The position numbers and the translations under genes are program-made. Under the pieces are notes generated by a model. That model had not been told where the DNA came from and did no database searches. It saw only the letters and a list, made by a program, of their open reading frames with translations. This document shows positions 9,319 through 48,273 of a stretch of 64,000 nucleotides of DNA, in pieces (within the stretch, counting starts at the first letter, position 1; each line of letters begins with the position of its first letter). The stretch is from Corallococcus sp. AS-1-12 (GTDB lineage Bacteria; Myxococcota; Myxococcia; Myxococcales; Myxococcaceae). Location of the stretch: contig NZ_JAIQDD010000010.1 in NCBI RefSeq assembly GCF_020036995.1, positions 97,433-161,432 of the forward strand, in the 5' to 3' direction.

Positions 9319-11415
9319 ATGGCCCGCCTGCCCGCCGCAGTGTCCGCCGGAGTCCTCCTCGTGAGCGCCTGTGTCCGCTCGGTGCCGACGCCCGACGTGC
9401 CTCCGCCCCCGGTCGAGCCCTCGAAGGTCATCGCCCAGATTCAGGACTGGGAGGACCGCCGGTCGCTGGGGGGCGGTGAGCTGCCGCGGCTCGCCACCTC
9501 CGCGCCGGAAGCGGCCGTGCGCGTGCGTGCGCTCCGGGCCCTGGCGCGCATCCAGGACGTGGAGACGCTGGAGGCCGTCCTCGTCGGGCTGACGGCGCCG
9601 GAAAAGGCCGTGCGCGACGAGGCCGCCTTCGCGGCGGGTGAGCTGGCGCAGTCGTGGGAGCCGCTCCCGGAGGCCGCACGGACGGCGCTCACGGAAGCGC
9701 TGGTGCGCGCCGAGGCCTCGGAAGCCTACGCCCGGGTGCACAACACGCTGCTGGAGTCCCTGGGCAAGCTGGCCACGCCTGGCGCCGTGGAGGTGCTGAC
9801 GGCCCGGCTGTCTCCGGCCAATGGCCCCTGGGCCGCGGCCGCGGCGACGGCGTTGGGCGTGGCTGCGCGCAAGGCCGGACCCGCGGTCGTGGCGAACGTC
9901 CCCCTGGAGACCATCCGCGTGCTGCTGGATCCCCGCTTGCGGAGCGAGGTGAACGTCGCCGGGGCGTACCTCCTGGCGGCGTCGAAGCGGCTGGACGGCG
10001 TGGATGCGCTCCGCTCCTGCATGGCCAGTTCGATACCGGATGTGATGGCCCCGTGCGTGAAGAGCCTGGGCGACCTGGGCAGCCCGCGGGACGCGCTGGC
10101 GCTGAACCTGCTGTCGGGCGAAGCCACGTCCCGCGCGTCAGCGGAGGTGGCGCGTGCGCTGGCGAAGCTCGCCGCGAAGTGCGAGGCCGGCGCGCCCTGT
10201 GAGCCGCTGCTCGCGCTGGAAGGCCAGGCGCACCTGGCGAAGCAGGTGGCGGAGGGGAAGGCGGCGAAAGGCCACGTGTTGCTGGCGGTGGCGCAGCAGG
10301 GCCTTCCGCTCCAGGGCCGGCCGGTGTTGTCGCGCCTGAGGCGTGCGCTGGCGGAAGCCGACCTCGCCGCCGTGTCCGAGGAGGCCCACGCGGACCTCGC
10401 CTGGCTGGACTGCCGTTTCGCGGCGGCCATGGACCGGCAGCAGGGCGCGCTGGAGCAGGTGCGCCAGTGCGGCTACGGCCGCGTCCCCGAGGCCCGATGG
10501 CTCGCGCTGGGACTGCACGAGGTGGCGCAGTCCAAGGGACAGCCCGCTGGAGCCGCGTTCGCGGTGCCCTACCTGGACCACGTCAGCCCCATCGTGCGCG
10601 GCGCCGCGCTGGACGCGCTCTCCGAACGCCCGGTGCCTGAAGCGATGGCGCCCATCCGCGCGCTCATCGGCGGAGGGGACGCGGTGGTGGCGGGGCTGGC
10701 CGCGTCCGCCGCCGGCAAGCTGAAGGACGCCGAGGCCCTGACCGCGGTGCAGGCCCTGGCCGACCGCGTCCCCAAGGAGCCGGATCTGGCGGAGGCGGTG
10801 GCCGGCGCGCTCGTCGCGTTGCAGGGGCAGGCCGCGGAGCCCCGCCTGCGCGAATGGCTGAACCACCCGCACGCGAACGTGCGCCGGGTCGCGGCCGAGT
10901 CCCTCACGGCGCTCACGGGCGCTCCCGTCCGCTCCGCCCGCGTGGAGCTGCCTCCGGAGACGTACCGCCCGCCGGCCGCGTCCCCCGGGACGACGCTCAC
11001 GCTGCGCACGCGCAAGGGCGACATCAAGGTCCTTTTGGATCCGGAAGCGCCGCTCACGGGCGGCAACCTGGCGGCGCTCGCGAAGCAGGGCTACTTCCGG
11101 GGCGTCACCTTCCACCGCGTGGTGCCGGACTTCGTCGCGCAGGGCGGAGACCCGCGCGGAGACGGGGAGGGTGGCCCCGGGTACTCCATCCGCTGCGAGA
11201 TGACGCGCCGGCCGTATGCGCGTGGCACCGTGGGGATGGCGCTGTCGGGCAAGGACACCGGCGGCAGCCAGTTCTTCTTCACCCACTCGCCGCAGCCGCA
11301 CCTGGACGGCCGCTACACGGCCTTCGGCGAGGTCGTCCAGGGCATGGACGTGGTGGACGCGTTGCTGGAGGGCACGGTCATCGACGACGTCATCGTCGGC
11401 ACGCGCGCCCCCTGA
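9319..11415 (+). CDS. lipoprotein with HEAT-like repeats fused to a C-terminal cyclophilin-type peptidyl-prolyl isomerase
   Basis: Signal peptide plus lipobox (LLVSAC). Repeated Ala/Leu-rich HEAT/PBS-lyase-like helices. C-terminal cyclophilin motifs (FHRVVPDFVAQGGDP; GTVGMALSGKDTGGSQFFF). Confidence 0.85.
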   Translation: MARLPAAVSAGVLLVSACVRSVPTPDVPPPPVEPSKVIAQIQDWEDRRSLGGGELPRLATSAPEAAVRVRALRALARIQDVETLEAVLVGLTAPEKAVRDEAAFAAGELAQSWEPLPEAARTALTEALVRAEASEAYARVHNTLLESLGKLATPGAVEVLTARLSPANGPWAAAAATALGVAARKAGPAVVANVPLETIRVLLDPRLRSEVNVAGAYLLAASKRLDGVDALRSCMASSIPDVMAPCVKSLGDLGSPRDALALNLLSGEATSRASAEVARALAKLAAKCEAGAPCEPLLALEGQAHLAKQVAEGKAAKGHVLLAVAQQGLPLQGRPVLSRLRRALAEADLAAVSEEAHADLAWLDCRFAAAMDRQQGALEQVRQCGYGRVPEARWLALGLHEVAQSKGQPAGAAFAVPYLDHVSPIVRGAALDALSERPVPEAMAPIRALIGGGDAVVAGLAASAAGKLKDAEALTAVQALADRVPKEPDLAEAVAGALVALQGQAAEPRLREWLNHPHANVRRVAAESLTALTGAPVRSARVELPPETYRPPAASPGTTLTLRTRKGDIKVLLDPEAPLTGGNLAALAKQGYFRGVTFHRVVPDFVAQGGDPRGDGEGGPGYSIRCEMTRRPYARGTVGMALSGKDTGGSQFFFTHSPQPHLDGRYTAFGEVVQGMDVVDALLEGTVIDDVIVGTRAP

Positions 11416-19205: not shown

Positions 19206-19955
19206 ATGGCACAGATCAAGCTTGGAGAACTGCTGATCAAGGCGAACGTCCTGCAGGAGAGCCAGCTCAAGGCGGCGCTCGCCGAGCAGGCCAAGTGGGG
19301 CGGGAAGCTGGGCGAGATCCTCGTCCGGATGAACCTCGTCTCCGAGGACATCCTCGTGCGCGCCCTGTCGAAACAGTTGGGCATGCCGGCGGTGAACCTG
19401 GACTCCGTGCAGATGGTGCCGCCGCACGTGAAGGCCAAGATTCCGGCGCAGACGGCGCGCGACTTCTCCGTGGTGCCGCTGCAACTGCGCGACGACGGCA
19501 AGACGCTGGTCGTCGCCATGTCGGATCCGCTCAACGTGCGCGTGCTGGACGAGCTGCGCGCCCTGTCCAAGTGCCGCATCGTGGCCAACGTGGCCGGGCG
19601 CACCTCCGTGGCGCGGGCGTTCGCGCGCCTCTACGAGGAGACGGCGGAGCTGGAGGACGCGGACACCAACTTCAAGGTGGTGGACGCCCAAGGCCGCACC
19701 GTCGTGAAGAACCTCAAGGACCTGGACCCGGCCGCCGCCGTCGCCATGTCCCCCAAGCCCGCCGCCGCTCCGCCGCCCCGTCAGGCCCCTCCGCCGGAGG
19801 CGCCGCGCGCGGCCTCGGGCAGCCCCGCGGAGCTGCTCAAGAGCGTGGAGGAGGTCCAGCGCAAGGAGGTCGCGGCGCTGAAGGCCATGGTGGAGCTGCT
19901 CATCGAGAAGGGCGTTTTCTCCCGCGAGGAATACCTCGCCAAGGTCAAGCGGTAG
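19206..19955 (+). CDS. MshEN / GspE-N-terminal domain protein (predicted c-di-GMP receptor)
   Basis: Tandem MshEN motifs (KLGELLIKANVLQESQLKAALAEQ...KLGEILVRMNLVSEDILVRALSKQ). No ATPase domain. Confidence 0.75.
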   Translation: MAQIKLGELLIKANVLQESQLKAALAEQAKWGGKLGEILVRMNLVSEDILVRALSKQLGMPAVNLDSVQMVPPHVKAKIPAQTARDFSVVPLQLRDDGKTLVVAMSDPLNVRVLDELRALSKCRIVANVAGRTSVARAFARLYEETAELEDADTNFKVVDAQGRTVVKNLKDLDPAAAVAMSPKPAAAPPPRQAPPPEAPRAASGSPAELLKSVEEVQRKEVAALKAMVELLIEKGVFSREEYLAKVKR

Positions 19956-19964
19956 CCCCCGGCC

Positions 19965-20968
19965 ATGCGCAAGAAGATTGGTGAACTCCTCGTCCAGGCC
20001 GGAGTGGTGACGGACGAGCAGGTGAAGCAGGCCCTCGCGTCCGGACGGCGCGGCCAGGGCCGCAAGCTGGGTGAGGTGCTGGTGTCCATGGGCCTGTGCA
20101 CGGGCCGGGACATCGCGCGGGCGCTGGCGGCGCAGCACGAGCTGCCGTTCGTGGAGATCCCCGAGTACATCCCCCATGCGGTGTCCTCGCTGGTGTCCAT
20201 GGACTTCCAGACCGAGCACCGGGTGCTCCTCTTCGCGGCGGAGCAGGACGGCCGCAGCGAGAAGATCCACGTCGCGGTGGAGGACCCGGGCAACCTGATG
20301 CTGGTGGACGAGCTGCGCTTCCAGCTTCGCAAGCCGCTGAAGGTGTTCGTCGCCGCGCCGGATGACCTGGAGCAGGCGTTGTCGCGCGGCCGGGGCGAGC
20401 CCCTGGACATCGTGGAGGCTGAACCGATGGACATGGACGAGGACGATTCGCCGGACATCCTGACGTCTCCGCCGCCCCCGCCCGCCGCCGCGCGCGCGCC
20501 CACGCCGCCGCGTCCGCCCGCGCCGGCGCTGGACTGGGACCTGCCGCCGCCGCCGCCCAACGAGTCGGGCGTGGACGGCGCGGAGGTGCTGGAGGACATC
20601 CTGGGCTCCACGCCCCGTCCCAAGGTCCCCAAGGCCCCGCGTCCGCCGCCCCCGCCCGCCGCGGCCCGTCCGCCGCCGCCTCCGCCCCCCGCGGAGCCGG
20701 AGGACCCGAGCAAGCCGCGCGTCCCGGTGGTGCTCTTCGGCGGCGCCGCGCAGGGCGTGAAGCCGTCCGTGGCGCTCACGCCCAAGCCGGACTTCTCCGA
20801 GGAGGACCTGGCGGTGCTGGACGACATCGACCGCATCTCGCGCGGCGAAGAGGCCAGCCTGGACACGGAGAAGGTGAAGCCCGCGCGCATGGTCGCGAGC
20901 CTCATCCGCCTGCTCATCCGCAAGGGGCTCATCCAGGAGGCGGAGTTCCTGGAGGAGCTGGCCCAGAA

Positions 20969-20972
<4 letters not shown>
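19965..20972 (+). CDS. MshEN / GspE-N-terminal domain protein with Pro-rich linker (paralog)
   Basis: [24 protein letters not shown]...[24 protein letters not shown]. Conserved C-terminal helix shared with the upstream paralog ([13 protein letters not shown] versus LIEKGVFSREEYL). Confidence 0.75.
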
Positions 20973-23459: not shown

Positions 23460-24140
23460 GTGGGCGGTGAAGGGGATGGCACCCGTGGCTTCATGGGCAC
23501 TGGGGGAAGTTTGGCACCCGAAACCTCAGACGAGCAGTTGATGCTCGCCTTCCAGGCGGGAAACGCGCGTGCGTTCGAAGCGTTGGTGCGCAAGCACCGC
23601 GCGCCGGTGTTCAACTTCATCCTGCGCTTCGTGGGCCACCGGGCGCGGGCGGAGGACGTGCTGCAGGAGACCTGGCTCAAGGTGGTCCGCAGCGCCCGGG
23701 AATACGAGCCCAAGGCCCGGTTCACGACCTGGCTGTACACCATCGCGAGGAACCTCTGCGTGGACAGCACGCGCAAAGAGAGCTACCGCCAGGCGACGTC
23801 CCTGGAAGCCCCCTCGGCGGGTGCCGACGGCGACGAGGGACGTCCGCTGGGCGAGGGGCTGCCGGATGCCGGGGCCAGCCCGGAGCGCGGCGCGCACAAC
23901 GCCCGCCTCCGGCCCCTGCTGGAGCGGGCCCTGTCGGCCCTGCCGGAGGAGCAACGCGAGGTGTTCGTGCTGCGCGAGTACAGCGGCATCCCGTTCAAGG
24001 AGATCGCCGAGGTGACGGGCGTGTCCGAGAACACGGTGAAGAGCCGCATGCGCTACGCGCTGGAGGGCCTGCGCCGCCGCCTGGGTGAGCTGGGCGTGGA
24101 CGGCGACCTGTCGGAGGATGGAAGGACGGTGGCGGGATGA
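23460..24140 (+). CDS. ECF (sigma-70 family group IV) sigma factor
   Basis: Region 2 (FEALVRKHRAPVFNFILRFVGHRARAEDVLQETWLKV) and region 4 (EQREVFVLREYSGIPFKEIAEVTGVSENTVKSRM). Confidence 0.85.
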   Translation: MGGEGDGTRGFMGTGGSLAPETSDEQLMLAFQAGNARAFEALVRKHRAPVFNFILRFVGHRARAEDVLQETWLKVVRSAREYEPKARFTTWLYTIARNLCVDSTRKESYRQATSLEAPSAGADGDEGRPLGEGLPDAGASPERGAHNARLRPLLERALSALPEEQREVFVLREYSGIPFKEIAEVTGVSENTVKSRMRYALEGLRRRLGELGVDGDLSEDGRTVAG

Positions 24141-25558
24141 ATGCCCAGAATGCCCACGCGCACGAGGACCGGCTCCTCGACTTCGCCTACGGCGAGCTCC
24201 CCGCGTCGGAGGCCCACGCGCTGGAGCAGCACGTCCAGGGCTGCGCGCGCTGCACGAAGGCGCTGGCGGACATCCGCGGCGTGCGCACCGCCATGGCGCA
24301 GTTGTCCTCGGAGCCCGCGCCGGACGCGGGCCTGGAGTCGCTGCTCGCGTACGCGCAGCAGTCCGCGCGCCGCGCCGCCGCCGGCCCCGAGCCGAAGCCC
24401 TCGCGCTGGCGCCGCTTCCTCTTGCCCGCGGTGGGCCTGGCCACGGTGGGCACCTTCGGCCTCCTGACGTTGACGGTGCGCGAGAACCTCGACCTGTCGC
24501 CGAACCTGTCACAGCGGGCCGCCCCCAGCGCGGCGATGGAGGCGGCGAAGGTCGCCCCCGTCGCCCCGGCCCCCGCGCCGTCGAGCGCGCCCCTCGAAGG
24601 GGACGCACCCGAGGGCGGCTCGGAGGCCCTGGCGGCCGCGCCGGGCGCGATGGAGCTCAACCGCAATCAGATGGAGACCAAGGCCCAGCGCAAGGGCACC
24701 GCCGCGGCCCGCCCGTCGGACTGGATGAACGCGGGCAGCGGGGGCGCGCTGCTGGAGCGCCGCGCGGACGCGGAGGCTCCGAAGAAGAAGGTGGCCAAGG
24801 CCGTCCGGGACGCGGACGGCGAGTTCGCCGCGCTCGAGCCGCCTCCGGCCGCGCTGGAGGCGCCGTCGAAGGAAGCGGAGGCCCATGACAGCTTCCTCGC
24901 GAAGGACGAGCCCGCGCGGGGGCGCGCCTCGGCCAAGGTCAGCGACAAGGCGCTGGCCACGAAGGGCGACTCCCTCCGGTTGGGTGAGGCGGCCTATGGC
25001 CGTGGGCTCGTCTCGGATGACGCAGAGGACACGTCCGCGAGCGCGCCTCCGCCGCCGCCTCCTCCCGTTGCCTCCGCGCCCGTGGTGCAGGCCGTGCCCA
25101 TGGCCCCCGCGAGCGTGGGCTCCATCGGCGGTGCGTCGCCGCCGTCCACGCGCGCTCCCGCCGCGCCCAAGGAGGAGTCCGCCCGGGCCGAGGCCGCGAA
25201 GCCCGCTCCCATGGAGAAGTCCGCGTCCCAGGAGGCGATGACGGCGCGCGACCTGTCCGCCCAGGCCCAGGCCGCCGCGAACCAGGGTGACCGCGCCCGG
25301 GAGGCACGGCTGCTGCGCGCCGCGCTCGCGGCCGGAGCCAGCGGCAGCGAGAGGCTGGCCCTGCTCTCACGGCTCTGCGAGTCCGAGTCCGCCCAGGGCC
25401 GGACCCGGGAGGCCGCCGCCGTCTGCGGGCAGATCATCAAGGAGGCCCCCGGCTCCAGCGCGGCGCAGCTCGCCCAGCGCCGCCTGCGTCAGGCCTCGCC
25501 CCCCACGGCGCCGGCGTCCGCGCCGGCCAAGGCCGCTCCTTCCCAGCCCGCGCAGTAG
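24137..25558 (+). CDS. anti-sigma factor (zf-HC2 N-terminus, single TM, long Ala/Pro-rich periplasmic domain)
   Basis: ATGA overlap with the sigma gene. HxxxC...CxxC zinc-finger anti-sigma motif (HALEQHVQGCARCTKAL). TM segment (FLLPAVGLATVGTFGLLTLTV). Confidence 0.75.
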   Translation: MNAQNAHAHEDRLLDFAYGELPASEAHALEQHVQGCARCTKALADIRGVRTAMAQLSSEPAPDAGLESLLAYAQQSARRAAAGPEPKPSRWRRFLLPAVGLATVGTFGLLTLTVRENLDLSPNLSQRAAPSAAMEAAKVAPVAPAPAPSSAPLEGDAPEGGSEALAAAPGAMELNRNQMETKAQRKGTAAARPSDWMNAGSGGALLERRADAEAPKKKVAKAVRDADGEFAALEPPPAALEAPSKEAEAHDSFLAKDEPARGRASAKVSDKALATKGDSLRLGEAAYGRGLVSDDAEDTSASAPPPPPPPVASAPVVQAVPMAPASVGSIGGASPPSTRAPAAPKEESARAEAAKPAPMEKSASQEAMTARDLSAQAQAAANQGDRAREARLLRAALAAGASGSERLALLSRLCESESAQGRTREAAAVCGQIIKEAPGSSAAQLAQRRLRQASPPTAPASAPAKAAPSQPAQ

Positions 25559-25576
25559 GGAAGGGCGGCAGTCCAC

Positions 25577-25879
25577 ATGACCGATGCGGCCGGGGCCCGG
25601 GTCCTGGATAATGGGGACATGACGTCGGACGTGCACGCTCCCCCCGTGAACAGCCCCCGGAAGTCGCCGCCGCGCTCCCCGCGCCGGGCCCGCCGTGGCC
25701 AGGCCATGGTGGAGTACTCGATGATCAACTGGGTGTTGATCGTCGGGCTCGTCATCGGCGCCACGGTGAAGATCCGCTGGACGGACGACCGGCAGACCAA
25801 CGTCATCGACCTGTTCCTCGAGGCGTATCAGATTTATTACGACTCGTTTTACTTCGTGCTGAACCTGCCGTTCCCCTGA
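25577..25879 (+). CDS. candidate Flp/Fap-family prepilin
   Basis: GXXXXEY Flp processing motif (G-QAMV-EY) followed by a hydrophobic stretch (SMINWVLIVGLVIGATV). The predicted mature part is short (~57 aa). It lies immediately upstream of cpaB-tadB-tadC. Confidence 0.5.
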   Translation: MTDAAGARVLDNGDMTSDVHAPPVNSPRKSPPRSPRRARRGQAMVEYSMINWVLIVGLVIGATVKIRWTDDRQTNVIDLFLEAYQIYYDSFYFVLNLPFP

Positions 25880-25991
25880 GGGACGCCAGGGCCGCGGATC
25901 AACCCGCTGCGTCGAGCCGTCCTCCCCCTGGGCGGGCAGGCTCCGTGAGCGCTGGAGGTCCCGGGATTCCGCTTTGTCACGAGAGGTGGTT

Positions 25992-26021
25992 TTGACACCC
26001 GATGTGGGGCATGGCTAACAT
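25992..26021 (+). promoter_or_regulatory. sigma-70-like promoter candidate upstream of cpaB
   Basis: TTGACA, an 18-nt spacer, then TAACAT, located ~90 nt upstream of the CpaB start. Confidence 0.3.
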
Positions 26022-26111
26022 CTTGCTCCGTTCGCGCCCTGGCATCGCCCCCTCGTCCAAAGCAGTCCTGCCGCCACGACGGCGCCCCACCGTTCTGGAG
26101 GACCTTGAACC

Positions 26112-26930
26112 ATGTTGAAGGGTAAGACCCCGCTCGTCGTCGCACTGGTGCTCGGTTTGCTCGCGGGCATCGTGGCCTACTCGGCCATCAAGAAGAAGGA
26201 ATCGGATGTGCGCCGCGGGTGGAACCTGGTGCCCGTGGTGGTGGCGGGCCAGGACATGCCCGAGGGTTCGGTCATCACGTACGAGATGATCTCCCAGCGC
26301 TCCGTGCCGGAGCAGTTCGTCACCTCGTCGGTGGTGAAGCCGGACTCCGCCAACTACATCGTGAACCAGAAGGTGCTGGTGGCGCTGCAGGCCGGCGACC
26401 CCATCCTCTGGAGCCAGTTCGAGACGACGAAGGCCGCCGAGCGCCTGTCCACGAAGGTGCAGAAGAAGGCGCGCGCCATCACCATCGAGGCGAAGCAGAC
26501 CACGTCCGTGGGCGGGTGGATCCGCCCGAACGATCACGTGGACATCATCGGCACGTTCCGCGATCCGCAGACGGACGAGAGCGTCGCGGTGACGCTGCTG
26601 CAGAACATCATCGTGGTCGCCACGGGCAAGATCACCGGCACCACGAACATCAACCTCATCCCGGAGAACCAGCGCGAGTACTCCAACGTCTCGCTGATGG
26701 TGCTGCCGGAAGAGGCGGAGATCCTGGTGCTGGCGGCGGAGCTGGGGCAGTTGACCCTGTCCCTGCGCAACGAGGACGACGTGGACCTCATCGAGGAGCG
26801 TGGCCGCGCGACCATCAGCACGCTGCTCTCCGGTGAGCGCACCCGCGTGCTGGAGCAGAAGCGCCGGGAGATCATCCAGATCATCAAGGGCAGTGGCGGC
26901 GGCGAGAAGGCCTCGGCCGGAGCTCCGTAG
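26112..26930 (+). CDS. cpaB: Flp pilus assembly protein CpaB/RcpC homolog
   Basis: N-terminal TM (LVVALVLGLLAGIVAY) plus an SAF/CpaB periplasmic domain. Confidence 0.85.
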   Translation: MLKGKTPLVVALVLGLLAGIVAYSAIKKKESDVRRGWNLVPVVVAGQDMPEGSVITYEMISQRSVPEQFVTSSVVKPDSANYIVNQKVLVALQAGDPILWSQFETTKAAERLSTKVQKKARAITIEAKQTTSVGGWIRPNDHVDIIGTFRDPQTDESVAVTLLQNIIVVATGKITGTTNINLIPENQREYSNVSLMVLPEEAEILVLAAELGQLTLSLRNEDDVDLIEERGRATISTLLSGERTRVLEQKRREIIQIIKGSGGGEKASAGAP

Positions 26931-27008: not shown

Positions 27009-27854
27009 ATGCTCGCAGGTATCGTCCTCCTTCTCGTCACCGGCTCGGTGTTCTTCTTCAGCCTGGTGATCTTCAGCGTCCTGTCGAAGGCGTATGAGCA
27101 GTACCAGGAGCGCTACGTCGCCAAGTCGATGAACGACTTGAGCGACATGTTCCTCTTCATCGACGCGCGGCAGATGTTGATCCTCAACATCGCCTGCATG
27201 TGCCTTCTGGGCATCCTCAGCTACATCATCTTCAACCCCATCCTGGCGGTGCTCGCGACCATCTTCGGCTTCTTCCTGCCGATGCTGCTCGTGAAGCACT
27301 ACCGCAAGCGCCGCATCAAGAAGTTCAACGTGCAGTTGGTGGACGCGCTGCAGGCCATGGCCAACGCGTTCAAGGCGGGCCTCACGTTCCCGCAGGCCAT
27401 CGAGCACGTGGCGCGCGAGGCGCTGCCGCCCCTGTCCCAGGAGTTCGGCCTCTTCGTGAAGGAAGTGAAGCTGGGCGTGCCGCTGGAGGAGGCGCTCATC
27501 AACATGGGCCGCCGCGTGGGCAGCGACGACCTGGAGCTGGTGGTGGTGTCCACCAACATCGCGCGCCAGTTGGGCGGCAACATGGCGGAGATGTTCGAGA
27601 CCATCTCCACGGTGATCCGCGAGCGCTTCCGTCTGGAAGGCAAGATCGACGCGCTGACGTCCCAGGGCAAGCTTCAAGGCTGGATCGTGGCGGCCATGCC
27701 GGCGGTGCTGGGCATGGTGCTCAACTACATGCGTCCGGACCTGATGGAGCCGATGATGAACCACATCTTCGGCTACATCCTGGTGACCCTGATCGCCATC
27801 ATGGAGATCATGGGCATCCTCATCATCCGGCGCATCGTCAACATCGACATCTGA
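27009..27854 (+). CDS. tadB: TadB-like platform protein (T2SS-F/GspF family)
   Basis: T2SSF-type domain with 3 TM segments (GLTFPQAIEHVAREALPPLSQEFG...). Confidence 0.8.
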   Translation: MLAGIVLLLVTGSVFFFSLVIFSVLSKAYEQYQERYVAKSMNDLSDMFLFIDARQMLILNIACMCLLGILSYIIFNPILAVLATIFGFFLPMLLVKHYRKRRIKKFNVQLVDALQAMANAFKAGLTFPQAIEHVAREALPPLSQEFGLFVKEVKLGVPLEEALINMGRRVGSDDLELVVVSTNIARQLGGNMAEMFETISTVIRERFRLEGKIDALTSQGKLQGWIVAAMPAVLGMVLNYMRPDLMEPMMNHIFGYILVTLIAIMEIMGILIIRRIVNIDI

Positions 27855-27867
27855 AGCGAGGCGCACC

Positions 27868-28758
27868 GTGCAGGAAGTCCTGACATTTCTGCTGATGGGC
27901 GGCTCGGCACTGCTGACCGCGGGCGCGGTGGCGTTCCTGGGCATCGGCCTGTACACCAACCTCCTGGAGCGCTTCCTCACGGAAGTCCGCGACGAGTCCG
28001 CGGGCGGCATGAAGGGCGCGGGCTCCGTCGCCATCCGCAAGCTGGGCGCGATGAACCGGCGCTTCATGTGGCCGGGCTACGAGTCCAAGACGCGCCGCAA
28101 GCTGATCAAGGCGGGCGAGCCGTCCCAGTACAAGCCCGAGGACATCATGGCGCTGCAGGAGGTGAGCGCCTTCCTGGGCCTGCTGGTGGGCCTGTTCGTC
28201 GCCAACGGCATCGGGGCGAACCTGGCGTGGTCGCTGCTGGTGATGCTGCTGGGCCTGTTCTATCCGCTCATCTGGTTGAACGACCAGGTGAAGCGCCGTC
28301 ACCTGGCCATCAGCCGCGCGCTTCCGTACAACCTGGACCTGCTGACGCTGTCGGTGGAAGCGGGCATGGACTTCACGGGCGCGCTGGCGAAGGTGGTGGA
28401 GAAGGGCCGCCAGGGGCCGCTGCGCGAGGAGCTGCAGTTGGTGCTCAAGCAGCTCAAGATGGGCAAGACGCGTGAAGAGGCGCTCAAGGGCATGATCGTG
28501 CGCGTGGACCTGCCGTCGCTGACGACGTTCGTCACGGCGCTGATCCAGGCGGACAAGATGGGCACGAGCCTGGGCAAGGTGCTGCGCATCCAGTCCACGC
28601 AGATGCGCATCGACCGCACGCAGCGCGCGGAGAAGCTGGCGGGTGAGGCACCGGTGAAGATGCTCTTCCCGCTCATCGCGTGCATCTTCCCGACGGTGTT
28701 CATGGTGCTCTTCGGGCCCATCGTGTTCCAGTTCATGTTCGGCAACGTCGGGGGCTAG
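27868..28758 (+). CDS. tadC: TadC-like platform protein (T2SS-F/GspF family)
   Basis: T2SSF-type domain (LPYNLDLLTLSVEAGMDFTGALAKVVEKG). Confidence 0.8.
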   Translation: MQEVLTFLLMGGSALLTAGAVAFLGIGLYTNLLERFLTEVRDESAGGMKGAGSVAIRKLGAMNRRFMWPGYESKTRRKLIKAGEPSQYKPEDIMALQEVSAFLGLLVGLFVANGIGANLAWSLLVMLLGLFYPLIWLNDQVKRRHLAISRALPYNLDLLTLSVEAGMDFTGALAKVVEKGRQGPLREELQLVLKQLKMGKTREEALKGMIVRVDLPSLTTFVTALIQADKMGTSLGKVLRIQSTQMRIDRTQRAEKLAGEAPVKMLFPLIACIFPTVFMVLFGPIVFQFMFGNVGG

Positions 28759-28831: not shown

Positions 28832-31663
28832 GTGAAGATCGGCCGGACCTCGGAGAACGACCTGGTCCTGCATGACCACGGTGTCTCCCGGCGTCATGCC
28901 CGCATCACGGCGAGGGATGGGCGTTACTTCGCCGAGGACGTTGGCAGCGCGAACGGCACGCAGTTGAACGGCCAGCCGCTGGGCGGCCAGAAGCAACTGC
29001 GCGACGGCGACCGCATCACCGTGGGGCCGGTGGAGTTCACCTTCGTGTGGGTGGCGCCGGAGGATGACGACGACGTCACCCGGCCCATCCGGCGGATGCT
29101 CGCGCCGCCGCACGCGAAGGTGTCGCCGCAGGGCGTGGAGCAGGCCTCGCTCGCGGAGATCGAAGCGGCGCCCACGAGCTACCAGCCGTCGATGCCGGCC
29201 ATGGCCCGGCCCGCGTCCCCGCCGCGCCCGGGAATGGCCGTGCCCGCCGCGAAGGGTGGGGCGATGCCAATGCCGGCCGCCACGCCGAAGCGGCCCTCCG
29301 CTCCGGATCTACCGGCGGTCAGTGCCTCCGCGCCGGGCCGGGCTGCACCGGGAACTCCCGTGCTGGGAACGCCCACGCCGGGGGCGGCGGCTTCGCCCAA
29401 GCCTGGTGTGCAGGGAGCCTCTGTTCCGGCGACTCCGCCCCGGCCTCCCTCGGGTCCGCCTGCGCTGGGCGCCTCTGCGTCCTCTGCTTCGGGCAAGGTT
29501 CCCGCCGCGCCTTCCGTGGTGGGGAGCCTGGGGCAGGGCGCGACCGCGCCGGCCAGGACTCCCGCGGGCCCTCCGGTGTTGGGTCCCGCGGCTCCCAACG
29601 AGGGTTCCCCGGCCAGGGCTCCTGCTGCTCCCCCGGTGCTGTCGGCCGGGAACAAGGCCTCGGGAGCTTCCGCCGCCGTCCGTGCCTCCGGGCCGGGACC
29701 GTCCTTGGCGGCCCGGGGCGCAGCGGCTTCGTCACCCGGCCTGCCGTTGATGTCTCCGCCGGGGCTGATGGTTCCGCCTCCTCCCGCACGGCCTCTCGCC
29801 GTGCCTCCTCCCGTGGAGCTGGCCCCCGTGGCGCCGGACGAGCCCGAGGAGCGCACGCTGATGGCGATCTCCACGGTGGACTCGCCCGTGCCCGCCGCCA
29901 CGCCGCCTCCCGTGCTGTCCCTCCCGGACATGGACGAGCCCGAGGAGCGCACGCTGATGGCGATCTCCACGGTGGACTCGCGCGTGCCCGCCGCCGCGCC
30001 GCCTCCCGTGCTGCCTCTCCCGGAGCTGGACGAGCCCAACGAGAGCACGCTGATGGCGATTCCCACGGCGGACCTGGCCGTGCCCGCCGCCACGCCGCCC
30101 CCGGTGCTCTCCTTCCCGGAGCTGGACGAGCCCGAGGAGCGCACGCTGATGGCGATTCCGGCGACCCCGGAAGCGCCACCGGTTCCCGTCGCGCCGCCGC
30201 CGCAGGAGGCCCCGCCCGCGCTGCCCCCGCCGGCGATGGAGGAGCCCGAGGAGCGGACCGTCCTCGACCTCCGGCCCATCACGCCGGTCAAGCCGCTCGT
30301 GGCCCCTCCGGTGCGCATCGTGAGCGCGCCCGCCGCCGCGATCGACTCCAGCGAGCCCTCGACCTTCGTCGGCCAGGACGATGACCTCTCCGCGGCCCCC
30401 GAGGAGACCCGGGCCTCCGGGACCTTCTCGGGCCAGGTCTCGCCCGGACCTGCCGCACCGGCCGCGGCGCCTCCGCCGGTCTGGAGCCCTCCCGTCCCGC
30501 CGCCTTCCGAGGAGCCGGTGACGTTCGTCGGCCACGACCGCGCCCCGCCTGCCCCGGCCCTGGACCCCGGGCTGCTGACGGGCGAAATCCCACTGCTGGC
30601 CCATGTGCCCGCTCCGGACGCGGAGGGTGAAGCCACCCTGCCCGTGCCGGCCAACCTGGATGAGTCCGCCACCCAGCCCGCGCCAAGGGGCCCGGTGACG
30701 GTCGTCGCGAAGGTCGAGCCCTCGTCCGCCGCCGACAAGGCCCGCCAGCGGCGCCAGTTGGGCAAGACGCTCAAGGGCCGGTTCCTCCTCTTCTGGCAGC
30801 GCCAGTCGCTGCCCAGGCGCATCGGCTTCGCGTCGCTGGCGGGCGTGGCCGTGCTGGGCGTGCTGACGCTGCTCGTGGCGCTCGCGGCCCCCTCGGCCAT
30901 CCGGCTCCCGGGCCGCGAACCCTTCACGCTGGGCATGGAGCCGGTGCCGGACTCCTTCGGCCTGGGCGAAGGGGTGCGCTGGGTCCACGCCGACGACAAG
31001 CTCTTCGACTTCCGCTTCGTGTCCCCCACGCGCGCCGTGGCGGTGCTGCACTACCAGGCCAGCAACATCGCCCGGGACGAGGTCAACCTGTCCCTCAACG
31101 GCGTGTCCCTGGGCTGGGTGCCCCCGGATACCGCCCAGACGGCCGAGCGTGAGCTGGAGCAGGTCCTCCCGCCCAGCCTCCTGCGGCGCAACGCCAACAA
31201 CCAGCTCCTCTTCGACAACGCCCTCAACCCGCCCGGCCGCGACCCCTGGCGCATCTGGAACCTGCGGCTGGAGATCATCCCGGTGCCGGAGCTGCCGCCG
31301 GATCAGCTCATCACCTCCGCCCGGGAGGCCGCCAAGGCAGGGGCCCGCTTCTACGAGCTCAAGGACGTGGGCGCGGAGAACCTGTTCAAGGCGTGGCGGG
31401 AGTACCGCGCCGCGTGGATCACCCTGGAAGCGCTGGACGACAAGCCGGAGCTCTACGAGGACGTCCGGGAGCGGATCGCCCAGATTTCAACGGAGCTGGA
31501 CCACCGCTGCAGCCAACTGATGATGCAGTTCCAGCGGGCGGTTCAGTTCCGCAGCCGACGGGATGCGGTCGCCACCCTGGAAGACGTACGGAGACGCTTC
31601 CCTACGGCCGAGCATCGCTGCCACAATCTCGCGCTGGAAAAAGCCTATGAGCACGAGCTTTAG
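28832..31663 (+). CDS. FHA-domain protein, large proline-rich, with internal 32-aa tandem repeats
   Basis: FHA core (IGRTSENDLVLHDHGVSRRHARI...ANGTQLNGQPL). The first canonical start (GTG 28832) would truncate the FHA beta1 strand, which is encoded in-frame upstream (PILLTITQGLQVGRELAFEQAE). The true start is likely non-canonical at ~28763-28769. Confidence 0.8.
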   Translation: MKIGRTSENDLVLHDHGVSRRHARITARDGRYFAEDVGSANGTQLNGQPLGGQKQLRDGDRITVGPVEFTFVWVAPEDDDDVTRPIRRMLAPPHAKVSPQGVEQASLAEIEAAPTSYQPSMPAMARPASPPRPGMAVPAAKGGAMPMPAATPKRPSAPDLPAVSASAPGRAAPGTPVLGTPTPGAAASPKPGVQGASVPATPPRPPSGPPALGASASSASGKVPAAPSVVGSLGQGATAPARTPAGPPVLGPAAPNEGSPARAPAAPPVLSAGNKASGASAAVRASGPGPSLAARGAAASSPGLPLMSPPGLMVPPPPARPLAVPPPVELAPVAPDEPEERTLMAISTVDSPVPAATPPPVLSLPDMDEPEERTLMAISTVDSRVPAAAPPPVLPLPELDEPNESTLMAIPTADLAVPAATPPPVLSFPELDEPEERTLMAIPATPEAPPVPVAPPPQEAPPALPPPAMEEPEERTVLDLRPITPVKPLVAPPVRIVSAPAAAIDSSEPSTFVGQDDDLSAAPEETRASGTFSGQVSPGPAAPAAAPPPVWSPPVPPPSEEPVTFVGHDRAPPAPALDPGLLTGEIPLLAHVPAPDAEGEATLPVPANLDESATQPAPRGPVTVVAKVEPSSAADKARQRRQLGKTLKGRFLLFWQRQSLPRRIGFASLAGVAVLGVLTLLVALAAPSAIRLPGREPFTLGMEPVPDSFGLGEGVRWVHADDKLFDFRFVSPTRAVAVLHYQASNIARDEVNLSLNGVSLGWVPPDTAQTAERELEQVLPPSLLRRNANNQLLFDNALNPPGRDPWRIWNLRLEIIPVPELPPDQLITSAREAAKAGARFYELKDVGAENLFKAWREYRAAWITLEALDDKPELYEDVRERIAQISTELDHRCSQLMMQFQRAVQFRSRRDAVATLEDVRRRFPTAEHRCHNLALEKAYEHEL
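29837..30220 (+). repeat. 4 (+1 partial) tandem 96-bp coding repeats inside the FHA gene
   Basis: Unit gacgagcccgaggagcgcacgctgatggcgatctccacggtggactcg... encodes EPEERTLMAISTVDSPVPAATPPPVLSLPDMD. Units start at 29837, 29933, 30029 and 30125. Confidence 0.8.
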
Positions 31664-31690
31664 GGCTCGTGCCCCCCTCAGCAGGACGCG

Positions 31691-33439
31691 GTGACCTCCA
31701 TGTCGAACGCACCACCCCCCGCCCGCCGACGGCCTACATCTGGCACGCCCTCCTCCGGGACCGGTTCGCGCGCGCCGGTCCGCCGGTCGTCCGCCGGTGC
31801 CGCCGCGGCCCGCCCCGCGAAGCTCGTCGTCATCGCCGGCCCCATGGAGGGTGAGGAGTTCGCGCTCTCCGAGCTCGAGTACACGGTCGGCCGCTCCACC
31901 GACAACCCCATCTGCATCCAGGACACGTCCGTCTCCCGCAAGCACGTGACGCTGCGCAAGGAGTCCGCCGGCTGGATGGTCAGTGACATGGGCTCCGGCA
32001 ACGGCACCATCGTCAACGGCGAGCCCATCTCCGAGGAGACGCTCCTCGCCAACGGCGACGTCATCACGCTGGGCGACTCGGAGCTGCGCTACGAGGACAC
32101 CGCCAACAGCACCGCGAAGGTGCAGGCCCCCACCGGCCCCCGGCCCCGTCCATCCTCGGCGGCGGGCCGCGGTTCCACGGCCGTGCCCCCGCGCCCCGCC
32201 CGCGAGGGCCGCGCGCGCCCGCAGACGTCGCGGGCCGCCGCCGCCGCGGAGCTCTCGCCGGAGGTGCAGCGCAAGCGCATGCGGATGAAGCTCGCGGGCG
32301 CCGCCGTGCTGGTGGTGCTCTTCGCGGGCCTGGGCGTCGCGCGCTCGCGCATGCGGCAACAGGCGGAGGAGCAGGGCCGCATCGAGGCGGAGCAGCGCAG
32401 CTACCGCGAGCAGTTGGGCGGCCTCTTCCAGGAGGCGAAGAACCTGGTGCGCGAGGGCCAGTGGCAGCAGGCCAAGGCGAAGCTGGAGGAGCTCCACGCG
32501 CAGGCGCCGGACTACCCCGGCGTGGCGGACTACCTGAAGGCCGCGGAGCGGGAGATCCCCAACCAGAACCACCTGAGCACGGCCCAGGCGGCGCTGGACA
32601 AGGGCCAGTTGGCCAGCGCGAAGGCGTCCATCGAGAAGGTGACCAGCGACACCCAGCTCTACGAGCAGTTGAAGACGGCGCGCAAGAACCTGACGGACGC
32701 CGCCGACACGCGCACGAAGGAGGCCAAGCGGCTGCTGGACACCCGCCAGTTGGAGAACGTGCAGCAGGCCAAGGCCATCACCGACGACGTGCTCGCGACC
32801 TTCCCCGAGCACCGCGACGGCAAGCTGGTCAACGACGACGCCGTGCGCGTCATCGCGGACCTGACGCGTCCGGACCCCGTGCGCGTGGCCGCGGCGCCCA
32901 AGCCGTGGGAGCCCGCCGTGGACCGCTTCCGCGACGGTGACATCACCGGCGCGGTGGCCATCCTCAACGCGTGCGCGGCCAAGACGTCCCAGTGCAAGCA
33001 GTTGATGGCGCAGGTGACGGAGTTCGGCAACCTCTACAAGAAGCTGGAGGACCTGGACGCCAAGGGCCTCACCCGCCTGCTCGCGCTGGACAAGGACATC
33101 ACCGACGGGCGCGCCAGCAAGATGGCGCGCAACGCGGGCACCCGCGCGGGCAACATCTATTACAAGAGCGCCGCGGGCGCGAAGGCCGCCGGCCAGTGGT
33201 CGCGCGCCATGGAGTTCGCCCGCCGCGCGCTCCAGGCGGACCCCAGCCACGCGGGCGCCGCCAACATCGTCAACGACCTCAAGGGCAAGGCGAAGGACCT
33301 GTACATGCAGGCCTACTCCATCAAGGACTCCAGCCCGGAGGACGCGCTGCCCAAGTTCCGCGACGTCGTCGCGATGACGCCGCCCGACGACGAGCTGCAC
33401 GGCAAGGCCCAGGGCTGGGTCGAGAAGCTGTCGCGATGA
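31691..33439 (+). CDS. FHA-domain protein with TM segment and C-terminal TPR-like helical domain
   Basis: FHA core (YTVGRSTDNPICIQDTSVSRKHVTL...SGNGTIVNGEPI). TM segment (LAGAAVLVVLFAGLGVA). The stop overlaps the xseA start (ATGA). Confidence 0.85.
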   Translation: MTSMSNAPPPARRRPTSGTPSSGTGSRAPVRRSSAGAAAARPAKLVVIAGPMEGEEFALSELEYTVGRSTDNPICIQDTSVSRKHVTLRKESAGWMVSDMGSGNGTIVNGEPISEETLLANGDVITLGDSELRYEDTANSTAKVQAPTGPRPRPSSAAGRGSTAVPPRPAREGRARPQTSRAAAAAELSPEVQRKRMRMKLAGAAVLVVLFAGLGVARSRMRQQAEEQGRIEAEQRSYREQLGGLFQEAKNLVREGQWQQAKAKLEELHAQAPDYPGVADYLKAAEREIPNQNHLSTAQAALDKGQLASAKASIEKVTSDTQLYEQLKTARKNLTDAADTRTKEAKRLLDTRQLENVQQAKAITDDVLATFPEHRDGKLVNDDAVRVIADLTRPDPVRVAAAPKPWEPAVDRFRDGDITGAVAILNACAAKTSQCKQLMAQVTEFGNLYKKLEDLDAKGLTRLLALDKDITDGRASKMARNAGTRAGNIYYKSAAGAKAAGQWSRAMEFARRALQADPSHAGAANIVNDLKGKAKDLYMQAYSIKDSSPEDALPKFRDVVAMTPPDDELHGKAQGWVEKLSR

Positions 33440-46761: not shown

Positions 46762-47103
46762 ATGGCACAGGGTGAAACGGGCATCATTGGCAAGGGCATC
46801 GTCATCAGGGGCAACCTCACGGGCGGAGGGGACCTGGTCATCGAGGGGCGCGTGGAGGGGCAGATCGCCCTGAAGAACCACCTCACCATCGAGGGCACCG
46901 GCAAGGTGCAAGCGGACATCCGCGCCGAGGAACTGACCATCAACGGCGAGGCGAGCGGCAACATCGACGCCTCCACGCGCGTGGCCATCAACGCCTCGGC
47001 GAAGGTCGCGGGCGACATCAAGGCCCCGCGGGTCATCATCGAGGACGGCGCCGTGTTCAACGGCTCCATCGAGATGGACGTGAAGTTGCCGGACGACATC
47101 TAG
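46762..47103 (+). CDS. bacN: bactofilin
   Basis: Bactofilin (DUF583) beta-helical repeats. First of three tandem bactofilin genes followed by a ParB-like gene. Confidence 0.8.
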   Translation: MAQGETGIIGKGIVIRGNLTGGGDLVIEGRVEGQIALKNHLTIEGTGKVQADIRAEELTINGEASGNIDASTRVAINASAKVAGDIKAPRVIIEDGAVFNGSIEMDVKLPDDI

Positions 47104-47165
47104 CATCCACCGGGGACCGACCCACGGCCCCCCATGCGCACAGCTTCGAGAAGGCGGACACACTC

Positions 47166-47489: not shown

Positions 47490-47492
47490 TCC

Positions 47493-48212: not shown

Positions 48213-48273
48213 AGCCCGCCCGCCGCGCCGTCGTTTCCGGCGGCGCGGGGGTGGAACAACCGGGGGTGCCACC

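What the first reader, a model, noticed from the sequence alone, without database searches (positions are those of the whole stretch)
25577..25879. Flp-type prepilin candidate directly upstream of cpaB
The ORF carries the G-XXXX-EY motif (GQAMVEY) followed by a hydrophobic helix (SMINWVLIVGLVIGATV). This is the hallmark of Flp/Fap pilins cleaved by TadV/CpaA-type peptidases. The leader is unusually long and Arg/Pro-rich. The mature C-terminal half is AT-rich and Tyr/Phe-rich (YQIYYDSFYFVLNLPFP), unlike classical Flp pilins. No prepilin peptidase gene is present in the window.
Basis: seen in the sequence. Interest (0 to 1): 0.55.

Follow-up and report, generated by a model that had tools for sequence, protein, structure and literature searches.

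The report
KilK adapter pilin of predation pilus

Summary
The ORF, the GQAMVEY motif, the hydrophobic helix and the AT-rich, Tyr/Phe-rich C-terminus are all present. The motif-plus-helix occurs once in the six-frame translation and never in 100 shuffles.

The gene is the ortholog of M. xanthus KilK (mxan_4655). Published kilK deletion primers bracket, and encode the ends of, the 75-aa M. xanthus homolog, which is 78% identical over the mature part. KilK is a minor "adapter" Flp pilin of the Kil predation pilus; the major pilin is KilP, encoded elsewhere.

No Pfam or NCBIfam model detects the protein. A profile-profile comparison with Caulobacter-type Flp aligns the leader, G/XXXXEY motif and helix in register (86%, E 5e-6).

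The 41-residue leader is probably an artefact. ATG 25577 lies in a conserved non-coding block, and one relative has an in-frame stop after it. Likely starts are ATG 25619 (86 aa) or GTG 25646 (77 aa); the mature protein is 59 aa either way.

Corallococcus loci are compact. The Tip4 minor-pilin genes and four unknown genes that flank kilK in Myxococcus are absent, and kilK sits directly behind the regulatory block that precedes kilM4 elsewhere.

No prepilin peptidase gene is in the window. Verdict: an ordinary member of a known family, with a locus-level twist.

The parts
25577..25879 (+). Longest ORF as reported (100 aa, stop codon included)
   Evidence: The first 14 codons are probably not translated.
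25570..25587 (+). Conserved upstream block AGTCCACATGACCGATGC. Other genera read GTCCAnTTGACCGATGC. It contains the ATG at 25577.
   Evidence: It is invariant in 14 Corallococcus sequences. It is homologous to the block upstream of the first Tip4 gene (kilM4) in Myxococcus, Pyxidicoccus, Archangium and Hyalangium (alignment A4). A regulatory function is inferred, not shown.
25607..25612 (+). Conserved GATAAT (-10-like hexamer), 6 nt upstream of ATG 25619
   Evidence: The pattern GAT(A/G)(A/C)T, then 6-8 nt, then ATG is conserved in all 10 sequences of alignment A4. The tool's sigma-70 scan did not call a full promoter here, so promoter function is inferred.
25619..25879 (+). Most probable kilK coding sequence (86 aa prepilin, 27-residue leader ending in Gly). 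The alternative start GTG 25646 gives 77 aa.
   Evidence: ATG 25619 is the positional homolog of the kilM4 start codon in other genera. GTG 25646 is the positional homolog of kilK's own start codon elsewhere, but the Shine-Dalgarno sequence in front of it is lost in Corallococcus. All indels from 25619 onward are multiples of 3. Each candidate start is missing in one of 14 relatives.
25697..25717 (+). Predicted prepilin-peptidase site G41 | Q42-A-M-V-E46-Y47 (G/XXXXEY)
   Evidence: G, Q and E are invariant, and Y is at least 90% conserved, across the wide family. The site aligns in register with G14/E19/Y20 of Caulobacter PilA-type Flp. Cleavage itself is inferred.
25700..25876 (+). Mature pilin coding region (59 aa, QAMVEY...NLPFP)
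   Evidence: It is 78% identical to M. xanthus KilK residues 16-75. Substitutions fall 14/7/24 at codon positions 1/2/3 among Corallococcus.
25718..25768 (+). Hydrophobic alpha1N helix (SMINWVLIVGLVIGATV)
   Evidence: Hydropathy. The AlphaFold2 model has a helix at residues 12-40 of the 77-aa form, with pLDDT 89-91 over the hydrophobic part.
25826..25876 (+). C-terminal signature YQIYYDSFYFVLNLPFP (48-50% GC)
   Evidence: It is nearly invariant in 45 Myxococcaceae/Archangiaceae homologs. It is recognisable in distant members as AYQ.YYDS.Y.VLNLP(F/I)P. GC profile.
25992..26021 (+). Sigma-70-like promoter TTGACA-18-TAACAT in front of kilB
   Evidence: Matches 10 of 12 positions, with 0.0 expected in shuffles. 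Both hexamers are invariant across five genera. This suggests that kilK and kilBGH are separate transcription units.
26112..26930 (+). kilB (CpaB/RcpC homolog)
   Evidence: TIGR03177 E 4e-56. It is 90% identical to M. xanthus KilB (mxan_4652).
27009..27854 (+). kilG (TadB-like inner-membrane platform protein)
   Evidence: Pfam T2SSF. It is 95% identical to the M. xanthus gene at the KilG position.
27868..28758 (+). kilH (TadC-like inner-membrane platform protein)
   Evidence: Pfam T2SSF. It is 83% identical to M. xanthus KilH.
28832..33439 (+). Two FHA-domain genes (28832-31663 and 31691-33439), counterparts of the two FHA genes that follow kilH in M. xanthus
   Evidence: Pfam FHA and Yop-YscD_cpl. 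Synteny with the M. xanthus locus L001.
23460..25558 (+). ECF sigma factor gene (23460-24140) and zf-HC2 anti-sigma gene (24137-25558), directly upstream
   Evidence: Pfam and NCBIfam hits. The pair is kept next to the kil cluster in nearly all of the 80+ loci examined.

Best explanation
The gene is kilK, encoding a small Flp-like minor pilin of the Kil system. The Kil system is the Tad-like contact-dependent prey-killing pilus of myxobacteria.

The proposed mechanism has four steps.
1. The prepilin (probably 86 or 77 aa) inserts into the inner membrane through its basic leader and hydrophobic helix.
2. A prepilin peptidase, encoded outside this window, cuts after Gly41. This leaves a 59-residue protein that starts with QAMVEY.
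3. Its N-terminal helix packs into the helix bundle at the top of the KilP filament.
4. Its conserved C-terminal helix and LNLPFP tail contact the KilL/KilM/KilN tip trimer. In this way the protein couples a tip complex to the fibre and helps prime polymerisation on the KilB/KilG/KilH platform encoded just downstream.

What is shown here: the gene is real and conserved; it is orthologous to M. xanthus KilK; it lies in the Kil cluster II context; and it has the motif, the helix and the family signature.

What is taken from M. xanthus experiments: the adapter role and the requirement for predation.

What is inferred: the cleavage, the identity of the peptidase, and the start codon.

In Corallococcus the gene stands alone. 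It lies directly behind the regulatory block that precedes kilM4 in other genera. The most likely cause is a deletion that removed kilM4, kilN4, kilL4 and two unknown genes.
For: Orthology:
- There are 265 homologs, all named ones from Myxococcaceae or Archangiaceae.
- The M. xanthus homolog P0042 (75 aa) lies three genes upstream of kilB.
- The kilK deletion primers of PMC8460266 map to the bases flanking that gene on L001, at 9981-10001 and 10230-10248.
- The kilK deletion primer of PMC12075869 encodes NHPKTLR|VLNLPFP, which are the two ends of P0042.
- The window protein is 78% identical to KilK over residues 16-75.

Context:
- kilB, kilG and kilH follow at 90/95/83% identity.
- The same neighbourhood is seen in 80+ loci.

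Coding:
- GC3 is 0.90.
- Substitutions in the mature part show a third-position bias.
- The antisense ORF is broken in about half of the Corallococcus relatives.

Pilin features:
- The G/Q...E/Y motif is invariant.
- hhalign of the wide family against PF04964-annotated Flp proteins gives 86% probability and E 5e-6 over 34 columns, in register.
- Some members give weak Class_IIIsignal, TadE or Flp_Fap hits.
- The AlphaFold2 model is helix, short hairpin, helix.

Function of the ortholog (PMC12075869, section 13):
- Deleting kilK abolishes the activity of Tip1, Tip2 and Tip4.
- The kilK kilO double mutant cannot polymerise KilP.
- Models place KilK between the tip trimer and the KilP fibre.

A distant family member closes a stand-alone TadE-Tad-TadE operon. 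This fits a role linked to tip complexes.
Against: - No curated model recognises the protein. Pfam Flp_Fap and NCBIfam gave no hit.
- A PDB sequence search and a Foldseek search found nothing meaningful.
- hhalign with the narrow family alignment aligned only 12 columns, at 0.9% probability.
- The tip genes that accompany kilK in Myxococcus are absent from this locus and from the whole window. The partners of this KilK are therefore not identified here.
- No peptidase gene is in the window.
- No expression or protein data exist for Corallococcus.
- The adapter role rests on genetics and AlphaFold models in another genus, not on a solved structure.
Confidence: 0.85

Rival explanations
1. It is the major, fibre-forming Flp pilin of the Tad-like pilus encoded next to it. 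This is the natural reading of 'Flp gene upstream of cpaB'.
For: It occupies the position in front of cpaB that the flp/pilA gene takes in classical tad/cpa loci. It has the G/XXXXEY motif and is small. KilK was first proposed as the major pilin (PMC8460266).
Against: - In M. xanthus, deleting the ortholog gives only a partial defect.
- The fibre there is made of KilP (mxan_5121), encoded elsewhere, and kilK is transcribed at very low level (PMC12075869).
- The C-terminal half is almost invariant over whole families. That fits a buried interface better than the usually variable exposed surface of a major pilin.
Confidence: 0.07
2. The full 100-aa ORF is translated from ATG 25577, and the prepilin really has a 41-residue leader.
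For: ATG 25577 is present in all 14 Corallococcus sequences and there are no indels in 25577-25618. Some gene callers chose it, giving products of 96-100 aa. GGGAAGGG lies 11-18 nt upstream.
Against: - The ATG lies inside a block that is non-coding and reads TTGACC in other genera.
- L011 has an in-frame TGA at codon 5.
- Substitutions in this stretch are 12/15/9 at codon positions 1/2/3.
- The upstream GGGAAGGG is not conserved in L005, L017 or L018.
- Homologs outside Corallococcus are 74-78 aa.
Confidence: 0.08
3. It is a small membrane protein unrelated to pili, for example a partner of the adjacent ECF sigma/anti-sigma pair, and the pilin-like motif is coincidental.
For: No pilin HMM hits it. 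In Corallococcus it lies directly after the anti-sigma gene.
Against: - It is orthologous to a gene with a pilus phenotype (PMC12075869).
- In most genera it is separated from the anti-sigma gene by five genes and ends a TadE-TadG-TadF operon.
- The profile-profile match to Flp is in register.
Confidence: 0.04
4. It is not a gene: either a chance ORF in GC-rich DNA, or the real gene is the antisense ORF 25489-25806.
For: GC-rich genomes carry many long spurious ORFs. The antisense ORF is 105 aa with GC3 of 0.91.
Against: There are 265 conserved homologs with 24 invariant residues. Substitutions are coding-like. The antisense frame carries internal stops or frameshifts in relatives such as L005, L006, L007, L010, L011, L012 and L018.
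Confidence: 0.01

Closest known systems
KilK (MXAN_4655) of Myxococcus xanthus, the adapter minor Flp pilin of the Kil Tad-like predation pilus (Seef et al. 2021, PMC8460266; Herrou et al. 2025, PMC12075869)
   Same: It is the ortholog. It is 78% identical over the mature part and has the same G|QAM(V/L)EY site, hydrophobic helix and YQIYYDSFYFVLNLPFP end. It lies in the same cluster as kilB, kilG, kilH and the two FHA genes, behind the same ECF sigma/anti-sigma pair.
   Different: - In M. xanthus, kilK is the sixth gene of an operon-like run (kilM4, kilN4, kilL4, two unknown genes, kilK). Its GTG start overlaps the previous stop codon, and two more unknown genes separate it from kilB.
- Here all seven of those genes are absent, and kilK stands 18 nt after the anti-sigma stop (longest ORF) and 232 nt before kilB.
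- The Shine-Dalgarno sequence of the ancestral start is lost, and the leader is probably longer (27 against 16 residues).
KilO (mxan_1150), the second adapter Flp pilin of M. xanthus, encoded in the tip3 cluster
   Same: As described in the paper, it is a small all-helical Flp-like protein with a leader and cleavage motif, encoded beside a TadE/TadG/TadF-like tip cluster (PMC12075869, section 13). A distant KilK-like protein found here has that same arrangement.
   Different: KilO is 59 aa, and its deletion primer indicates that it ends in ...VIQAPI rather than LNLPFP. I did not have the KilO sequence, so relatedness was not tested.
Classical Flp/Fap pilins (Pfam PF04964), for example Caulobacter PilA
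   Same: Both have a basic leader, cleavage after Gly with Glu at +5 and Tyr at +6, a hydrophobic helix of about 20 residues, a small size, and a location in front of cpaB. The profile-profile match over these 34 columns is 86% probability, E 5e-6.
   Different: - It does not reach the Pfam model, even at E<=10. Only 1 of 37 wide-family members gives a weak hit, at E 0.08.
- Gln, not Ala or Val, follows the cleavage site.
- The C-terminal half is an invariant aromatic helix ending in LNLPFP, not a short variable tail.
- By orthology it is a minor subunit, not the fibre.
Adapter or coupling minor pilins of type II secretion and type IV pili, which link a minor-pilin tip complex to the major subunit
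   Same: The proposed role is the same: one copy sits between a minor-pilin tip complex and the fibre and primes assembly. The comparison is drawn in PMC12075869 (section 13).
   Different: No sequence relationship was found here. Those proteins have a globular head, whereas KilK is a 59-residue helical hairpin.

Membership tests
KilK-type adapter Flp pilin (Kil system) | Sequence orthology to M. xanthus KilK (mxan_4655) | tested here: met
   phmmer E 4.8e-30 to P0042. tblastn gives 78% identity, E 1e-33. P0042 was identified as KilK through two independent sets of published deletion primers.
KilK-type adapter Flp pilin (Kil system) | Location in Kil cluster II with kilB, kilG and kilH | tested here: met
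   CpaB and two T2SSF genes follow directly, at 90/95/83% identity to the M. xanthus genes. The same linkage is seen in 80+ loci.
KilK-type adapter Flp pilin (Kil system) | Family signature: R-G|Q-x-x-x-E-Y, a hydrophobic helix, and a C-terminal YYDS.Y.VLN.PFP | tested here: met
   All 24 columns that are invariant in the 45-sequence alignment are present in the window protein.
KilK-type adapter Flp pilin (Kil system) | Encoded with a TadE/TadG/TadF-like tip cluster (kilM/kilN/kilL) | tested here: not met
   No homolog of kilM4, kilN4, kilL4 or the four neighbouring unknown genes exists anywhere in the 64-kb window (tblastn E<=1e-3). All Corallococcus loci examined lack them at this site. This is a property of the locus, not of the protein.
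KilK-type adapter Flp pilin (Kil system) | Required to couple tip complexes to the KilP fibre, and for predation | not testable with these tools
   Known only from M. xanthus genetics and AlphaFold models (PMC12075869, sections 13-14).
Flp/Fap pilin (Pfam PF04964) | Match to the Flp_Fap profile above its gathering score | tested here: not met
   There was no hit at E<=1 for the 100-aa ORF and none at E<=10 for 45 close family members. One weak hit (E 0.082) appeared among 37 wide-family members.
Flp/Fap pilin (Pfam PF04964) | G/XXXXEY processing motif followed by a hydrophobic helix of about 20 residues | tested here: met
   GQAMVEY plus SMINWVLIVGLVIGATV. It is unique in the window and absent from the shuffles.
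Flp/Fap pilin (Pfam PF04964) | Detectable homology to bona fide Flp proteins | tested here: inconclusive
   hhalign of the wide KilK family (A3) against 36 PF04964-annotated Caulobacter-type Flp proteins (A2) gave 86% probability, E 5e-6, over 34 columns in register. The narrow alignment (A1) gave 0.9% probability over 12 columns. The match covers only the signal and helix region.
Flp/Fap pilin (Pfam PF04964) | Small and wholly alpha-helical | tested here: met
   The mature protein is 59 aa. The AlphaFold2 model has helix 12-40, a short hairpin 42-52 and helix 53-72, with mean pLDDT 74.7.
Flp/Fap pilin (Pfam PF04964) | Cleaved by a TadV/CpaA/FppA-type prepilin peptidase | not testable with these tools
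   No Peptidase_A24 gene is in the window. In M. xanthus, kilA lies in the other kil cluster, and the peptidase that acts on KilK has not been stated (PMC12075869).
Flp/Fap pilin (Pfam PF04964) | Forms the pilus fibre (major subunit) | not testable with these tools
   By orthology this is unlikely. In M. xanthus the fibre is KilP, and kilK deletion gives a partial defect.

The most novel reading that the evidence does not exclude
In the Corallococcus lineage, one deletion removed the Tip4 minor-pilin genes (kilM4, kilN4, kilL4) and two unknown genes. That deletion joined the Tip4 regulatory block and the kilM4 start codon directly to kilK.

On this reading, kilK is now an orphan adapter gene, possibly expressed from a leaderless mRNA that begins at ATG 25619. 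It would carry a chimeric, longer signal peptide and would serve only tip complexes encoded elsewhere in the genome. If so, Corallococcus would lack this Tip4 copy, the tip that in M. xanthus kills independently of the T3SS-like system. Tip-like clusters encoded elsewhere in the genome were not examined here.
Probability: 0.4. Interest if true: 0.35.

Novelty: new member of a known kind. Interest (0 to 1): 0.25.

Why it matters
- Annotation: KilK-type pilins are labelled 'hypothetical protein' in NCBI records and escape Pfam and NCBIfam. The signature defined here (RG|Q...EY, a hydrophobic helix, then AYQ.YYDS.Y.VLNLPFP) would let them be annotated. It finds 118 clusters at 50% identity in a 1.8-billion-protein library.
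- Myxobacterial predation: the Corallococcus locus shows that kilK is kept even where the neighbouring tip genes are gone. This fits its described role as an adapter shared by several tips.
- A testable lead: Corallococcus may lack the Tip4 module of M. xanthus at this site.
- Beyond these points, the finding is an ordinary ortholog of a characterised gene.

Tried and rejected
- Pfam and NCBIfam scans of the ORF found nothing, even at E<=1. Scanning 45 close and 37 distant family members gave only marginal Class_IIIsignal, TadE and Flp_Fap hits.
- A profile search of all PDB chain sequences returned only a chance beta-xylosidase match at E 1.6.
- A Foldseek search of the AlphaFold2 model against the PDB gave nothing below E 1.9. 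This is as expected for a 77-residue helical hairpin.
- hhalign with the narrow family alignment aligned the motif in register but without significance. The wider alignment was needed.
- The antisense ORF 25489-25806 was considered and rejected, because it is broken in relatives.
- The consensus sigma-70 scan found no promoter in front of kilK. The conserved TTGACC-like and GATAAT elements are 24-25 nt apart, too far for a standard sigma-70 promoter. I could not fit them to an ECF-type or sigma-54 pattern by eye, so their nature stays open.
- A literature search for leaderless transcripts or mapped start sites in M. xanthus gave nothing usable.
The paper shows that it is Tip4.
- Cluster look-ups of distant family members gave no taxonomy.

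Full report
**What is in the sequence.**
- The + strand carries a 100-codon ORF from 25577 to 25879.
- GC content by codon position is 0.59/0.44/0.90, the pattern of real genes in this 72% GC window.
- Residues 41-47 read G-QAMVEY and are followed by SMINWVLIVGLVIGATV. Windowed hydropathy peaks at 2.2 there.
- I searched the six-frame translation of the whole window for G-X4-E-[YF] followed by an uncharged, strongly hydrophobic stretch. It occurs once, at 25697, and never in 100 codon-block shuffles.
- The last 90 bases are 48-50% GC and encode YQIYYDSFYFVLNLPFP.
- The next gene, 232 nt downstream, is a clear CpaB (TIGR03177, E 4e-56). It is followed by two T2SSF platform genes and two FHA genes. 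An ECF sigma factor gene and a zf-HC2 anti-sigma gene lie just upstream.

**The ORF is a real gene.**
- A search of 5.8 billion proteins returned 265 homologs. All that carry a name come from Corallococcus, Myxococcus, Pyxidicoccus, Hyalangium, Archangium or unnamed Myxococcaceae.
- They are mostly 74-78 aa and share 24 invariant positions.
- Among 14 distinct Corallococcus sequences, the mature part shows 14/7/24 changes at codon positions 1/2/3, and all indels are multiples of three.
- The antisense ORF 25489-25806 carries stops or frameshifts in about half of the same relatives.

**Identity.**
- The M. xanthus homolog P0042 (75 aa) lies three genes upstream of the CpaB gene.
- Seef et al. 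2021 list mxan_4652 as KilB and mxan_4655 as the pilin KilK (PMC8460266).
- Their kilK deletion primers map to the bases immediately flanking the 75-aa gene on L001, at 9981-10001 and 10230-10248 against the gene at 10001-10228.
- The kilK deletion primer of Herrou et al. 2025 encodes NHPKTLR joined to VLNLPFP, which are the two ends of P0042.
- So P0042 is KilK. The window protein is its ortholog, 78% identical over KilK residues 16-75, with KilB, KilG and KilH at 90, 95 and 83% identity.
- The best genomic match is Corallococcus coralloides KYC2213 at 99% identity.

**What KilK does, from the literature.**
[quoted passage not shown] Its deletion gave only a partial defect (PMC8460266).
- The fibre is made of KilP (mxan_5121), encoded elsewhere (PMC12075869).
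- KilK and KilO are Flp-like minor pilins transcribed at very low level.
- Deleting kilK abolishes the function of Tip1, Tip2 and Tip4.
- The kilK kilO double mutant cannot polymerise KilP.
- AlphaFold models place the N-terminal helix of KilK inside the KilP bundle and its C-terminal helix between KilM, KilN and KilP (PMC12075869, sections 13-14).
- I take this as the most likely mechanism for the Corallococcus protein. It is inferred by orthology and was not tested here.
- The near invariance of the C-terminal half fits a buried interface better than an exposed fibre surface (my inference).

**Is it an Flp pilin in the formal sense?**
- The Pfam Flp_Fap model does not see it. There was no hit at E<=1 for the ORF and none at E<=10 in 45 close relatives. 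One marginal hit appeared in 37 distant relatives, alongside marginal Class_IIIsignal and TadE hits.
- NCBIfam, the PDB sequence search and Foldseek gave nothing.
- A profile search of 1.84 billion cluster representatives found 118 clusters with the same layout. The layout is a basic leader, G|Q-x-x-x-E-Y, a hydrophobic helix, a short linker, then AYQ.YYDS.Y.VLNLP(F/I)P.
- I compared the alignment of these with 36 PF04964-annotated Flp proteins seeded from Caulobacter PilA. hhalign gave 86% probability and E 5e-6 over 34 columns, with Gly, Glu and Tyr in register.
- I conclude that the N-terminal half is a Tad-type class III signal plus alpha1N helix. The C-terminal half defines a separate subfamily that no library models.
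- The AlphaFold2 model (mean pLDDT 74.7) is a helix, a short hairpin and a second helix.

**Start codon and the 'long leader'.**
- ATG 25577 lies inside an 18-nt block (25570-25587) that is invariant in Corallococcus.
- The same block, reading TTGACC instead of ATGACC, lies upstream of the first Tip4 gene (kilM4) in Myxococcus, Pyxidicoccus, Archangium and Hyalangium. It is followed by a variable spacer of about 20 nt, a conserved GATAAT, 6-8 nt and that gene's ATG.
- In the window, that ATG is 25619.
- One Corallococcus genome (L011) has an in-frame TGA four codons after the upstream ATG. Substitutions between 25577 and 25618 are spread 12/15/9 over the codon positions.
- GTG 25646 aligns with kilK's own start codon in other genera. 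Their GGAG-type Shine-Dalgarno sequence is replaced by CCCCCC here.
- Each downstream candidate is missing in one relative: 25619 in L013 and 25646 in L017.
- My reading is that 25577 is very unlikely to be the start. ATG 25619 (86 aa, 27-residue leader) is the best candidate and GTG 25646 (77 aa) is the alternative.
- GATAAT ends 6 nt before ATG 25619, which suggests a leaderless transcript. This is inference only.
- The mature 59-residue product is the same in all cases.

**The locus differs from the model organism.**
- In M. xanthus the order is: anti-sigma, kilM4, kilN4, kilL4, two unknown genes, kilK, two unknown genes, kilB.
- None of those seven genes has a homolog anywhere in the window.
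- All the loci of Corallococcus type examined have the compact order anti-sigma, kilK, kilB. One assembly labelled C. terminator (L034), which groups with Myxococcus by identity, has the full order instead.
- Myxococcus, Pyxidicoccus, Hyalangium, Archangium and Cystobacter have the full order.
- A few deep-branching metagenome bins are also compact.
- A distant family member closes a stand-alone TadE-Tad-TadE operon. The ancestral unit therefore probably was a tip cluster ending in a KilK-like gene.
- Together with the shared regulatory block, this favours a deletion in Corallococcus that left kilK joined to the Tip4 promoter region. A species-tree analysis is needed to confirm it.

**Peptidase.** None of about 55 ORFs scanned across the window matches Peptidase_A24. 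Four of them matched no Pfam family, and the only intramembrane protease found is a rhomboid. In M. xanthus, kilA sits in the other kil cluster with kilC and kilF. Its absence here is therefore expected.

**Verdict.** It is the KilK ortholog, a minor adapter pilin of a published predation machine. The long leader is probably an ORF-calling artefact. The points of modest interest are the lack of any library model for this family and the reduced Corallococcus locus.

Noticed in passing
window 25559-26111, compared with L001 4029-12025: Corallococcus loci lack the Tip4 genes (kilM4, kilN4, kilL4) and four genes of unknown function (counterparts of mxan_4653, 4654, 4656 and 4657) that surround kilK in Myxococcus. 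No homolog of these genes is found anywhere in the 64-kb window.
   Followed up: yes
window 25992-26021: A sigma-70-like promoter (TTGACA, 18 nt, TAACAT) lies upstream of kilB, and a CTGGAGG ribosome-binding site lies before its ATG. Both hexamers are invariant from Corallococcus to Hyalangium, although the surrounding intergenic DNA is not.
   Followed up: partly
window 25570-25612: Two conserved elements, GTCCAn(T/A)TGACCGATGC and GATAAT, are separated by a hypervariable spacer of 19-21 nt (24-25 nt between the TTGACC-like hexamer and GATAAT). They are shared with the kilM4 upstream region of other genera. The spacing does not fit a standard sigma-70 promoter. Whether the adjacent ECF sigma factor acts here is unknown.
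   Followed up: partly
window 28832-31663: The first FHA gene after kilH encodes 943 aa, against 484 aa in M. xanthus. The extra 481 residues or so (29096-30538) are 24% Pro and 19% Ala. They contain four to five tandem copies of a motif like DEPEERTLMAIxTVDxxVPAAxPPPVL. Other Corallococcus have 903-1021 aa.
   Followed up: partly
window 46762-49644: Three consecutive bactofilin genes are followed by a gene with a ParB N-terminal domain. From memory only, this layout resembles the BacNOP-PadC module of M. xanthus.
   Followed up: no
window 19206-20972: Two adjacent genes encode proteins with MshEN domains (cyclic-di-GMP-binding domain family). They lie between a DUF4292 gene and two ABC-transporter ATPase genes. 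The arrangement is conserved in other Corallococcus loci.
   Followed up: no
L034 (assembly labelled Corallococcus terminator BB12-2): This assembly has the full Myxococcus-type kil locus, and its KilK groups with Myxococcus species. The C. terminator type-like strain CA054A (L018) has the compact locus. The assembly label may be wrong.
   Followed up: no
L088 3216-8198: A metagenomic contig carries a stand-alone operon: TadE (294 aa), Tad (620 aa), TadE-like (407 aa), a 243-aa protein, and a 65-aa KilK-like protein. It lies next to NADH dehydrogenase genes, with no Tad machinery nearby. It looks like a dispersed tip module with its own adapter.
   Followed up: partly
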